DNA of 64,000 nucleotides from Dendrobates tinctorius (lineage: Eukaryota). Position numbers: made by a program. The DNA is taken from contig NW_027361825.1 of assembly GCF_039654945.1 (NCBI RefSeq), positions 35,402,001-35,466,000 of the forward strand, written 5' to 3'. Position 1 is the first letter of the stretch, and the number at the start of each line of letters is the position of its first letter. This document shows positions 32,801-35,800 of the stretch, piece by piece.

Positions 32801-35800
32801 GAACTTGCACTATTGCTGACTGACTAAATACTTTTTTTCCCCACTGTATAAAAGCAAGACAGTGGGACCCACAGCCACACCCAACATGCCACCCAAGAAA
32901 GCAACCAAGCGAAGCAGGAGAAGGCAGGAGACCACTGCAGCACCATCAGCACCACCACCACCCCAAATGGAGCAGCAAATGGAACATGCTGAGGAGGGGA
33001 GGCCAGCAGCAGATGAGAGACGGTAATTATCAAATCCCCCATTCCTCCAAACTAGGGCTATTGAATATCAAGATATTCATTGGCCCTTTGTTTCTCTTTA
33101 TTCAACAGCCGCCCAATAGATGCAGCAGCAGCAATGGCAGCAGCTGGAACACCACCCACAGGCATGGAGTCTGGCCAGCAGGAAGACAGCACATCATCTT
33201 CTGGGAGCCCTCCCTCGCATCGTCAGCGTTTGACGGTAAGTTTTTATTTCCAAAATCCATCATCTCTGTAATATATGTCTATTCATTGCCTTTTATTTCA
33301 AAACAGTATTCACAAGATGAAGAGGAGCTCCCAGAAGAAGAAGGAAGGGGTGGACAGACACCTGGAGTGGGCTCACAATTGGTAAGTTTTTTGCATCAAA
33401 CGCAGAAACACAACATCACACTACACACAACACATAGAAAACAATGTTCTGCAGACCACACACAGCAAACAAATGCCTACATCCAAAGACATAACATTTT
33501 TTGTTTTCTTCTCTAGTCTTCCCAATCTGGTGCTCGGCCAAGAGGTCCTCGCAGTGCCTCCCAGGGTCGTCGGCGACAGCAACGCGGCGGTCACCAGCGT
33601 GTAAGTATAAATATTTTTGCTTTGTTTTTTTGCACTTTTTATTTCATTTCTTTTGTGGAGGCTAATTATGTTATTTTTGTCTTTTTCTTTAACAGCCTTC
33701 ACAGCGTGCTCCCGACTCTGACGGTGAGGATGGAGGACTCGATGTGGACCACCTCATCGATCTCGTCAGAGAAAGGGAGCCGCTCTGGAATATGGCTGAC
33801 CGCCGCCACGCTGACCTTATCGTTACCCGACGACTCTGGGAGGAAATCTGTTCGCTCCTTGTGGGCCGCTGGGAGGACCTCGATGTTCGGGCCCAGATTA
33901 AAGAGCGTAAGTATATACAGTACCGGTTGCTTGATGTAAACCAGTGTTTCCCGAACTCCAGTCCTCGTGGTCCCCACGGATCATGTGTTCAGGATTTCTA
34001 TTTCTATTTACTATGGAAATCCTGAAAACATGACCCCTGGGGACCATGAGGACTGGAGTTTGGGAAACACTGATGTTGTATACTAACCACTCCTTTCTCG
34101 TTTCAGGGAACAGAATTGTGAATCGGTGGCGGTCTGTGAGGGATCGTTTCAAGAAGGAGTTCAATAAAGAGATGCGGGCCCCGAGTGGATCTGGAGGACG
34201 CAGGAGCAAGTACAAGTACGCAGAAGCCCTGTCGTTCCTCCGGGAAACAATGGTCACTAGAAGGTAAATATTACACACCACATGTGAAAAAAAATGTTAG
34301 ATGTAAATTTTTTTTTTCAGCCAGGGCCATACCATGTCAGTATTTTAATTGTTTTTTTTTTCTCTTTATTCCACAGCACGGTGAGCAGCACTCGGGAGCC
34401 TGCACGATTGGACCCTTCTGAGGCGATCCCTGAGGAGACCGGCACCGAGGGACACTTCGACCGCCCCGGTACATCTGCACCTTCCCACACATTCGACCCA
34501 TCTGTCCCATCCACCAGCACAGGAGCATCGTGGCCGCCTACATTACATGAAGCTGCTGGTGAGGAGATCGCTTTCCCTTTACCCCACCCTTCTGCCCCTG
34601 CCACCTCTAGTACACCTGCGGGTACTGGGCGGCAGCGGCAGAGGGGTCAGGAAAAGACTTATGCGCCAGAGTTCTTGCATCTGAATGCATCTTTCCAGAA
34701 CTGTCTAAAAGTCTTGTCAGAGCAAATCACCGCAGGCTATCAGCAGATCAACTCCAGCATTCTGGAGGTGAAGACACTTCTGCAAACCATGCATTCAGAA
34801 GCAAGATCTTCGCCAAACCACACCTTTTTCAGGTCTGTTGTGGAGCGCATGGAAACGCTCTCTCCTGCCCAGCAGATGCATGTAATGCATTCATGCCACG
34901 CTGCTCTCCAGCAAGTTACCTCCCAACCTCCTCCCACCACAGTAGTTCCTCCACCTGCACCCCCTCCAGCCACTTTCCATCCTCCCCCTCCTATTACATA
35001 CCATCCACCTCCCCAGCACCAGCAACCTCCCCAGCACCAGCAACCTCCCCAGCACCAGCAACCTCCCCAGCACCAGCAACCTCCCCAGCACCAGCAACCT
35101 GCCCCGTACCAAACTCCTTCCCCATACAACTTGCCATCAACATCATCTGCTCCTACAGTCCCTGCCCAACCCTCCACTCCACCACCCACCACCTCTTCTG
35201 CTTCCCACATGTCCACCCATTCTGTAGTTTTTTCCACACCTTCACCTCTAAGGCCTCTTTCACACATCAGTTTTTTGCCTTCAGGCGCGATCCGGCTTTT
35301 TTTGGAAAAAACGGATCCGGCAAAATGCAATGCCGGATCCGGTTTTTCCCCATTGACTTGCATTAGCGCCGGATCGTGCCGGATGGCATTGCGTTTCATC
35401 CGTTTTTTGCCGGATCCGGCAACTTGTCTCATTCCGGCGTCTTGAAAAAACGTCTACTGTAACGTTTTTTGTCTCCGGCGAAAAAGCCGGAAGCGCCGGA
35501 TCCGGCGCTTCCAGCTTTTTGCTACAATGAAAGTCTATGGGCGCCGGATCCAGAAAAAGACGGATCCAGCAACCGGACCCGGTTTTTTTAAGTCTGCGCA
35601 TGCTCAGATCCAATTGGCCAGCCTCCAGGAACAGAGACGGATCCAGCAAAAAAACGGATCCGTTTCTACAGTTCTCAAAAATTTATGCTGGATCCGTTTT
35701 TTCTAAAAAAAGCCGGATCATGCCTGACAGCAAAAAACTGATGTGTGAAAGTAGCCTAACTGTTCCTTCCCCACCACGATCCCAGTCCTCTCTCCACACT

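What the first reader, a model, noticed from the sequence alone, without database searches (positions are those of the whole stretch)
32886..35445. Seven-exon Harbinger Myb/MADF gene still open while its partner transposase is dead
Seen: seven GT-AG exons join in phase to 1860 nt (~619 aa). The protein has a basic N-terminus (PPKKATKRSRRR), an acidic/RG-rich linker, a MADF domain, a BESS-like segment and a P/Q-rich tail. The convergent transposase has at least two frameshifts. Known: Harbingers need both a Myb/SANT protein and a DDE nuclease, and such genes were domesticated in vertebrates (HARBI1/NAIF1, MSANTD family). Inference: this copy could still supply a DNA-binding protein for the many CGGATCCG-rich Harbinger MITEs, including several in this window. 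The ORF track misses this gene because its exons are short.
Basis: partly seen in the sequence, partly recalled or inferred. Interest (0 to 1): 0.68.

Follow-up and report, generated by a model that had tools for sequence, protein, structure and literature searches.

The report
Decayed frog Harbinger transposon, both genes broken
This is one ordinary, recently inserted but already damaged copy of a two-gene Harbinger transposon in a poison-frog genome: its DNA-binding (MADF) gene only looks intact because its reading frame runs on into a small transposon that has landed inside its last exon.

Summary
The seven-exon model is real: 1860 nt, all introns GT-AG. The exons map collinearly onto annotated dendrobatid-frog proteins. 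A MADF domain spans exons 5 and 6. The gene lies in a 7.2-kb PIF/Harbinger element, 30867-38064, with 50-nt TIRs and a TAA duplication. Its convergent DDE_Tnp_4 transposase does carry two frame-breaking lesions.

"Still open" is misleading. A 505-bp MITE of the same superfamily (35252-35756, TAA duplication) sits inside exon 7. The last 64-65 codons of the 619-codon frame are MITE sequence and match no homologue. The native C-terminus lies 0.5 kb downstream and has its own frameshift, so a tail conserved in all full-length relatives is lost. A young Tc1 element sits 38 bp upstream of the ATG.

Both genes are therefore damaged at similar density. The copy is near the family consensus, with 0 private residues in 295 comparable positions. 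An open frame is then expected under neutrality. BESS is not confirmed. Only two related MITEs occur in the window.

Verdict: an ordinary decaying Harbinger copy. Expression, DNA binding and dN/dS could not be tested.

The parts
30867..38064 (.). Whole host PIF/Harbinger element (7198 bp including two nested insertions). It is flanked by the 3-bp target-site duplication TAA at 30864-30866 and 38065-38067.
   Evidence: Inverted repeat I8, 50-nt arms at 30861-30910 / 38016-38065, 92% complementary. Boundaries were read. The exact TIR core 14-mer occurs at 30870 and 38043.
30867..31239 (+). Left terminal and subterminal region, with 9 copies (up to 2 mismatches) of the palindrome CCGGATCCGG.
31242..32846 (+). 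Nested Tc1/mariner element (1605 bp, TA duplication at 31240-41 and 32847-48). It is inserted 38 bp upstream of the Myb ATG and carries an open 340-aa transposase ORF at 31607-32629.
   Evidence: TIR arms of about 210 nt are 99-100% complementary (I1 and I4). Pfam finds HTH_SB, HTH_Tnp_Tc3_2 and DDE_3. Empty site in a sibling: P0133 residues 1-10 map to 31211-31240 and residues 11 onward to 32848 onward.
32886..33022 (+). Myb/MADF gene exon 1 (ATG; basic PPKKATKRSRRR stretch).
   Evidence: Aligns to P0001 199-241. Sibling P0132 starts at the same MPPK.
33109..33235 (+). Exon 2.
   Evidence: P0001 245-276.
33307..33381 (+). Exon 3 (acidic, RG-rich).
   Evidence: P0001 278-301, 92% identity.
33517..33600 (+). 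Exon 4 (RG/RQ-rich).
   Evidence: P0001 302-329, 93% identity.
33696..33906 (+). Exon 5, first half of the MADF domain.
   Evidence: PF10545 positions 1-49, 21.1 bits. 97% identical to D. tinctorius P0129.
33942..34072 (.). 131-bp palindromic MITE inside intron 5. It is also present in sibling copies, so it is part of the subfamily and not a private lesion.
   Evidence: I6. DNA fold -58 kcal/mol, z-score -14.9. The read-through model P0130 carries the same sequence.
34107..34263 (+). Exon 6, second half of the MADF domain.
   Evidence: PF10545 positions 45-84, 28 bits.
34377..35251 (+). Native part of exon 7. It holds a conserved module (AFPLPHPS...RQRQRGQE.YAPEFLHLNASFQ...), a BESS-like helix, and a P/Q-rich tract with an 18-nt repeat x5.4 at 35007-35104.
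   Evidence: BESS scores 14.4 bits, below the cut-off.
35252..35756 (.). Nested Harbinger MITE (505 bp), TAA duplication at 35249-51 and 35757-59.
   Evidence: TIR pair I2, 75 nt, 88% complementary. 82.5% identical to the host's left end over about 355 bp. The encoded tail has no homologue.
35759..35864 (+). Displaced native C-terminal coding segment. Residues TVPSPPRSQSSLHTP are in one frame and VEVSRSPYSSISTTHYTDL plus the stop are in another, so there is a further frameshift near 35803-35808. The AATAAA signal is at 35877.
   Evidence: tblastn with P0001 and three-frame translation.
36367..37247 (-). Transposase exon 2 (DDE_Tnp_4), with a frame change near 37103-37110.
   Evidence: 99% identical to D. 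tinctorius P0009.
37398..37715 (-). Transposase exon 1 (ATG at 37715). A deletion of about 6-8 codons plus a frame change lies near 37488-37501. The intron at 37248-37397 is GT-AG.
   Evidence: P0011 and P0014 residues 77-82 unmatched; frame -3 changes to -1. Splice sites were read.
37850..38064 (-). Right subterminal region and TIR, with 6 CCGGATCCGG-like sites.
18216..18818 (.). The only other related MITE in the window, and a distant one: 68-70% to the nested MITE and host end, with 4 CGGATCCG sites.

Best explanation
The locus is a single, fairly young but already disabled copy of an autonomous-type PIF/Harbinger DNA transposon. The host is a dendrobatid poison frog; the closest relatives are all from Dendrobates tinctorius and its kin, and the sequence is not human.

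In active members of this family, gene 1 encodes a DDE_Tnp_4 nuclease of about 410 aa. Gene 2 encodes a protein of about 595 aa with these parts:
- a basic N-terminus;
- a MADF (Myb/SANT-like) DNA-binding domain;
- a conserved helical module;
- a P/Q-rich spacer;
- a short conserved C-terminal tail.

By analogy with zebrafish Harbinger3_DR, the MADF protein would bind the repeated subterminal motif, here CCGGATCCGG. It would also bind the N-terminus of the transposase and bring it into the nucleus and onto the transposon ends. This step is inferred, not shown here.

In this copy both genes are broken:
- The transposase has a small deletion with a frameshift and a second frameshift.
- The MADF gene has a Tc1 insertion 38 bp upstream of its ATG.
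- The MADF gene has a Harbinger MITE inside exon 7 that replaces the native last ~41 codons with 64-65 MITE-derived codons.
- The displaced native tail carries a further frameshift.

The 619-codon open frame is therefore a chimera of 554 native codons plus MITE sequence. It stays open because the copy has hardly diverged, not because it is maintained.
For: Shown:
- Exon arithmetic and splice sites hold.
- MADF is split across exons 5 and 6 with continuous profile coordinates.
- All exons lie collinear on P0001. The MITE-encoded tail matches 0 of 8 homologues.
- The MITE has 75-nt TIRs, a TAA duplication and 82.5% identity to the host end.
- The native tail lies downstream, in two frames.
- The tail motif ...VEV/DV...ISTPxY/FxxL is present in 5 of 5 aligned relatives that reach the end and in the distant P0193.
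- For Tc1, a sibling supplies the empty site, the TIRs are 99-100% complementary, and a leader through it would be 1675 nt with 33 ATGs.
- The transposase changes frame against P0011, P0014 and P0009.
- The element has TIRs and a TAA duplication.
- The family is multi-copy. 57 of 129 scored candidates match exon 5, and all 57 are from four dendrobatoid species. D. tinctorius copies are 91-97% identical and mostly fragmentary models.
- 0 private residues were found in 295 positions covered by at least 3 siblings. 3.8% of single-base changes would create a stop, so P(no stop) is 0.73 at 0.5% divergence and 0.53 at 1%.

From the literature (passages only): PIF gene 2 is a Myb-like/MADF protein that binds a subterminal 9-bp motif and imports the transposase (PMC9710019; PMC9392472).
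Against: - The MADF domain, the N-terminal basic stretch, the conserved module and all six splice-site pairs are intact, so a truncated DNA-binding protein could still be made.
- TATAAAAG survives right next to the Tc1 end (32847-32854).
- There is no intron downstream of the new stop, so a transcript need not be degraded.
- Two of the three single-site frame changes (near 37103-37110 and 35803-35808) are small and could in principle be assembly errors. The insertions and the deletion of about 6-8 codons could not.
- Only 295 of 552 in-frame codons could be compared with at least 3 siblings. Exon 1 was not covered and exon 7 only for 81 of 291 codons.
- By eye, the first residue of exon 3 (Y against E in the siblings) is one private change that the count missed.
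- No expression data and no DNA of other copies were available.
Confidence: 0.8

Rival explanations
1. This copy's MADF gene is still functional and supplies, in trans, the DNA-binding/recruiting protein for CGGATCCG-rich Harbinger MITEs, while the nuclease comes from elsewhere.
For: - The MADF domain is intact.
- Splice sites are intact.
- The motif is confined to Harbinger-derived ends and MITEs: 18 of 18 sites against 0.18 expected.
- A published precedent exists for MADF-bearing copies outliving DDE copies and acting in trans in Caenorhabditis inopinata (PMC13668399, passages).
Against: - The conserved C-terminal tail is cut off by the MITE and is also frameshifted.
- Tc1 sits in the leader or promoter.
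- Lesion density is similar in both genes.
- Many sibling copies exist.
- Openness is expected by chance at this low divergence.
- The only in-window MITEs are 82.5% and 68-70% related to this element's ends.
Confidence: 0.1
2. A gene being domesticated. The MITE-derived new C-terminus marks exaptation of the MADF protein as a host regulator or as a repressor of the family, in the manner of NAIF1/MSANTD or fish ADF-1L.
For: - Harbinger Myb-like genes are repeatedly domesticated (PMC9392472; PMC9710019; PMC11893794; passages only).
- Annotated models fuse KRAB exons to sibling copies (P0001).
Against: - The copy still sits between its own TIRs and target duplication.
- It is one of many near-identical copies.
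- It shows no private divergence.
- Its surroundings are nested transposons.
- Orthology and synteny could not be examined.
Confidence: 0.03
3. The element is really intact, and the frame changes are assembly or sequencing errors.
For: Two frame changes are small, near 37103-37110 and 35803-35808. P0009, 99% identical, reads through the second transposase site.
Against: The 505-bp MITE, the 1605-bp Tc1 and the loss of about 6-8 codons in transposase exon 1 are structural and have their own target duplications or repeats. They cannot be base-calling errors.
Confidence: 0.03

Closest known systems
Harbinger3_DR of zebrafish (Sinzelle et al. 2008, PNAS; seen only through citing passages in PMC9710019 and PMC9392472)
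   Same: - It is a two-gene element with a DDE transposase and a Myb-like/trihelix(MADF) protein.
- It makes a 3-bp target duplication.
- It has repeated subterminal motifs bound by the Myb-like protein.
- The Myb-like protein binds the transposase N-terminus and imports it.
   Different: - The gene-2 protein here is about twice as long (about 595 aa against the 300-400 aa quoted in PMC9710019).
- It has seven exons, a conserved C-terminal module and a conserved tail.
- The motif here is the palindrome CCGGATCCGG.
- This copy is broken in both genes.
- Binding and import were not tested here.
Harbinger-1M_cIno family of Caenorhabditis inopinata (PMC13668399; abstract and passages)
   Same: A family in which MADF-bearing copies and MITE-like derivatives outnumber intact DDE copies, with function proposed in trans.
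   Different: There, intact expressed MADF genes were shown by RNA-seq and a new insertion was caught. Here the MADF gene is truncated by a MITE and no expression data exist.
Vertebrate domesticated Harbinger genes: HARBI1, NAIF1, MSANTD1-4 (PMC9392472) and fish ADF-1L (PMC11893794); passages only
   Same: They derive from the same two Harbinger genes. The Myb-like or MADF domain is used for DNA and protein binding.
   Different: Those are single-copy, syntenic and without TIRs. This locus keeps its TIRs and target duplication, and it is one of many copies.
Annotated dendrobatid proteins P0001, P0003, P0129-P0135 (gene 2) and P0009-P0016 (gene 1)
   Same: Same family: 77-97% identity per exon for gene 2 and 73-99% for the transposase. 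Exon junctions are the same.
   Different: Full-length relatives keep the native C-terminal tail, which this copy has lost.

Membership tests
PIF/Harbinger superfamily | DDE_Tnp_4-type transposase gene | tested here: met
   PF13359 at 97.4 bits on the 255-aa piece. 1254 of 1368 scored candidates are homologues.
PIF/Harbinger superfamily | Second gene encoding a Myb/SANT/MADF protein | tested here: met
   PF10545 is found on exon 5 (21.1 bits, positions 1-49) and exon 6 (28 bits, positions 45-84). 7 of 8 homologues score 42.8-51.9 bits.
PIF/Harbinger superfamily | Terminal inverted repeats and a 3-bp (TWA-type) target-site duplication | tested here: met
   50-nt arms, 92% complementary (I8). 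TAA on both sides.
Autonomous (self-sufficient) Harbinger copy | Both reading frames complete | tested here: not met
   The transposase has two frame changes. The MADF gene is truncated by a MITE and its native tail is frameshifted.
MADF-BESS proteins | BESS motif (PF02944) at or above the 21-bit gathering score | tested here: not met
   - The window's exon 7 scores 14.4 bits.
- 0 of 8 homologues reach the cut-off; 4 of 8 score 10.2-15.4 bits at the same place.
- 0 of 46 relatives of the module reach it; 2 of 46 are sub-threshold.
- The Atlas neighbours of P0003 residues 250-400 are BESS clusters, but at a score of 0.82, which is a lead only.
'BESS-like' remains possible; membership is not shown.
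Domesticated Harbinger-derived host gene (NAIF1/MSANTD type) | Single copy without TIRs or target duplication | tested here: not met
   TIRs and target duplication are present. Many near-identical copies exist.
Domesticated Harbinger-derived host gene (NAIF1/MSANTD type) | Conserved synteny across species and purifying selection | not testable with these tools
   No eukaryotic genome DNA collection was open, so no DNA of other copies or of orthologous sites could be obtained.
Functional Harbinger Myb-like protein | Binds the subterminal motif and the transposase N-terminus | not testable with these tools
No wet-lab data exist.

The most novel reading that the evidence does not exclude
The MITE-truncated MADF protein (554 native residues plus a 64-65-residue MITE-encoded end) is expressed. 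Because it keeps DNA binding but lacks the family's conserved C-terminal tail, it would act in trans on CCGGATCCGG-bearing ends. It could be a partial helper, or a competitor/repressor of its own family. That would be a vertebrate counterpart of the split MADF/DDE economy reported in C. inopinata, and it would point to the conserved tail as the part that engages the transposase.
Probability: 0.07. Interest if true: 0.45.

Novelty: new member of a known kind. Interest (0 to 1): 0.15.

Why it matters
It matters mainly as a correction. A long open frame in a transposon copy is not evidence of function when the copy is young, and here the frame's end is borrowed from a nested MITE.

The locus is a clean worked example of nested insertions in a transposon-rich frog genome: a Tc1 and a same-superfamily MITE inside a Harbinger.

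It also documents the exon structure and conserved parts of a long MADF-type Harbinger gene 2 in dendrobatid frogs:
- the MADF domain;
- an 'AFPLPHPS...YAPEFLHLNASFQ' module;
- a terminal ISTPxYxxL tail.
This could help annotators, since many sibling copies are currently filed as 'uncharacterized protein' or fused to host genes such as KRAB, MIS12 and GABA-receptor models.

If the conserved tail proved to be the transposase-binding element, that would be a modest mechanistic advance for PIF/Harbinger biology.

Tried and rejected
- Structure prediction of exon 7 (alignment A3): not accepted twice, so no fold search was possible.
The stored homologue P0003 gave BESS-type neighbours at 0.82, a lead only.
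The taxonomic range of that module beyond dendrobatoid frogs is therefore unknown.
- PDB sequence search: nothing for exon 7. For the sibling P0131 only a chance-level hit, E 0.14.
- BESS membership: rejected as unproven.
- dN/dS: not computed.
- Chance ORF: rejected.
- Host-gene domestication: rejected on TIRs, target duplication and copy number.
- Joined spliced protein: deliberately not built, searched or folded. All searches were made exon by exon, so the whole-domain MADF score for this copy is not given.
- Literature: four searches found no paper on this dendrobatid family. The one anuran TE paper I opened (PMC12822217, passages) lists Tourist/Harbinger only as a class. This does not show that the family is undescribed. 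Repeat libraries and supplementary tables could not be consulted.
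Full report
**What is there.** They are 32886-33022, 33109-33235, 33307-33381, 33517-33600, 33696-33906, 34107-34263 and 34377-35445, and they sum to 1860 nt. All six introns are GT...AG with polypyrimidine/CAG acceptors. No exon has an internal stop, and the three split codons read R, R and S. As the operators asked, I searched the model exon by exon and left the joined step out.

**Domains.**
- Pfam finds MADF (PF10545) on exon 5 (profile positions 1-49, 21.1 bits, just below the 22-bit cut-off).
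- It also finds MADF on exon 6 (positions 45-84, 28 bits). The domain therefore runs across intron 5.
- BESS is only a sub-threshold hit in exon 7 (14.4 bits, cut-off 21).

**The model is a real gene structure, not a chance assembly.** A search with the native part of exon 7 gave 8 proteins at E <= 1e-3 among 8000 scored. All are annotated proteins of dendrobatoid frogs: Dendrobates tinctorius, Anomaloglossus baeobatrachus, Ranitomeya imitator and R. variabilis. Exon-by-exon BLASTP places the seven pieces collinearly and abutting on D. tinctorius P0001, at residues 199-241, 245-276, 278-301, 302-329, 330-399, 402-451 and 453-714. Exon 5 alone finds 57 relatives among 129 scored candidates, all from the same four species. 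D. tinctorius copies are 91-97% identical. The window is therefore from a dendrobatid frog, most likely D. tinctorius or a close relative. It is not human.

**Context: a complete Harbinger element.**
- The gene lies inside a 7.2-kb element, 30867-38064.
- Its terminal inverted repeats are 50-nt arms, 92% complementary (I8).
- A TAA target duplication flanks both sides.
- The convergent gene on the minus strand is a DDE_Tnp_4 transposase (97.4 bits). It has two exons, 37715-37398 and 37247-36367.
- Against intact homologues (P0011, P0014), about 6-8 codons are lost and the frame changes near 37488-37501. The frame changes again near 37103-37110.
- The 8-mer CGGATCCG occurs 18 times in the window (0.18 expected). 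All 18 lie in the two ends of this element, in a MITE nested inside it, and in one distant MITE at 18.2-18.8 kb.
- The fuller motif is the palindrome CCGGATCCGG. With up to 2 mismatches it has 9 copies in the left end, 6 in the right end and 13 in the nested MITE.

- At 35252-35756 a 505-bp MITE sits inside exon 7. It has 75-nt inverted ends (I2) and its own TAA duplication at 35249-51 and 35757-59. It is 82.5% identical to the host's left end.
The 64 residues encoded there match none of 8 homologues (best E 0.062).
- The native continuation lies after the MITE. TVPSPPRSQSSLHTP is in one frame (35759-35803). VEVSRSPYSSISTTHYTDL plus the stop is in another (35769-35864). A further frameshift therefore separates them.
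- The tail that is lost (...VEV/DV...ISTPxY/FxxL-end) is present in all five aligned relatives that reach their ends, although these share only 46-64% identity overall. It is also present in the distant P0193, which is 36% identical in the module. That conservation suggests the tail matters in working elements.

- A 1605-bp Tc1/mariner element (31242-32846, TA duplication) lies 38 bp upstream of the ATG.
- Its roughly 210-nt inverted ends are 99-100% complementary.
- Its 340-aa transposase frame is open, with HTH_SB, HTH_Tnp_Tc3_2 and DDE_3 domains.
- A sibling model, P0133, reads straight across the insertion site. Its residues 1-10 map to 31211-31240 and residues 11 onward to 32848 onward. 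This gives the empty site, and it suggests that in siblings the transcript starts upstream of that point.
- If so, the leader of this copy would be 1675 nt with 33 ATGs.
- TATAAAAG survives next to the Tc1 end, so transcription is not excluded.

**Is the open frame evidence of selection? No.**
- In 295 positions that at least three D. tinctorius siblings cover, the window has no residue that differs where the siblings agree. Exon 1 was not covered and exon 7 only for 81 of 291 positions. By eye there is one private change, the first residue of exon 3.
- The transposase piece is 99% identical to P0009. A 132-residue piece of exon 7 is 99% identical to P0180.
- Only 3.8% of possible single-base changes in the exons make a stop. 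The chance of no stop is 0.73 at 0.5% divergence and 0.53 at 1%.
- Counting lesions, the transposase has 2 in about 1.2 kb. The MADF gene has 2 inside about 1.8 kb of native coding sequence, plus the Tc1 at its leader. The contrast 'Myb alive, transposase dead' does not hold.

**How the family most likely works (inferred).** According to passages in PMC9710019 and PMC9392472, which cite Sinzelle et al. 2008 (not read here), the Harbinger Myb-like/MADF protein does three things:
- it binds a repeated subterminal motif;
- it binds the N-terminus of the transposase;
- it is needed to bring the transposase into the nucleus.

Here the basic N-terminus, the MADF domain and the CCGGATCCGG arrays fit that scheme. 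Which part of the long C-terminal half contacts the transposase is unknown.

The conserved module of exon 7 has 57 relatives at E <= 1e-3 in the 1.84-billion-protein library. Of the 46 I scanned (11 left out), 23 carry a MADF hit at E <= 0.1 and 12 are above the cut-off. None reaches the BESS cut-off. The module thus belongs with MADF proteins but is not a demonstrated BESS domain.

**Comparison with what is known.**
- A two-gene Harbinger with a MADF-type gene 2, domestication of such genes (HARBI1/NAIF1, MSANTD, fish ADF-1L) and families in which MADF copies outlast DDE copies (C. inopinata, PMC13668399) are all in print.
- This locus is a new, unremarkable member of that kind.
- The features worth recording are the length and seven-exon structure of gene 2, its conserved module and tail, and the tidy nesting of Tc1 and a same-superfamily MITE.
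- Four literature searches found nothing specific to this frog family. Repeat libraries and supplements were not available, so I do not claim it is undescribed.

**Verdict.** The most likely reading, at about 0.8, is a young, neutral, doubly broken Harbinger copy. A truncated MADF protein that still acts in trans is not excluded (about 0.07-0.1). Testing that needs locus-specific transcripts, a copy census, dN/dS from DNA of other copies, and binding assays.

Noticed in passing
window 31242-32846: This Tc1/mariner element looks intact and young. Its roughly 210-nt inverted ends are 99-100% complementary. Its 340-aa ORF (31607-32629) is open, with HTH_SB, HTH_Tnp_Tc3_2 and DDE_3 domains. It has a TA duplication and is a candidate active copy.
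   Followed up: partly
window 33942-34072: A 131-bp near-perfect palindromic MITE lies in intron 5 of the MADF gene (DNA fold z-score -14.9). It is also present in sibling copies, since the read-through model P0130 carries it, so it spread with the subfamily.
   Followed up: partly
window 36103-36274: A second small palindromic element (58-nt arms, 90% complementary) lies between the 3' ends of the two Harbinger genes.
   Followed up: no
P0001, P0009, P0037, P0048, P0090 (database proteins): Annotated frog gene models fuse Harbinger ORFs to host genes. Examples are KRAB plus a whole MADF gene, and 'MIS12 homolog', 'GABA receptor beta-2', 'sirtuin-3' and 'PEX7' isoforms that carry DDE_Tnp_4. 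These are either chimeric transcripts or annotation artefacts.
   Followed up: no
window 35007-35104: An in-frame 18-nt repeat x5.4 (PPQHQQ units) lies in exon 7. Siblings P0001 and P0180 have fewer units, so the P/Q tract is expanding and contracting between copies.
   Followed up: partly
window 28788-30740: A hAT-like transposase remnant in several frames lies immediately left of the Harbinger. Its C-terminus was read by eye, and the two ORFs tried gave no Pfam hit at 1e-3.
   Followed up: partly
window 52260-54272 (minus) and 45604-46230: An RT/RNase H pol ORF of an LTR-type retroelement, and the N-terminal half of a second Tc1-like transposase.
   Followed up: partly
window 1-1400 and 13100-15000: Long tandem-repeat tracts give proline-rich ORFs on both strands. 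They produced spurious low-complexity hits with the P/Q tail.
   Followed up: no
window 63281-63433: A run of 153 N, which is an assembly gap or masked stretch. It was left untouched.
   Followed up: no
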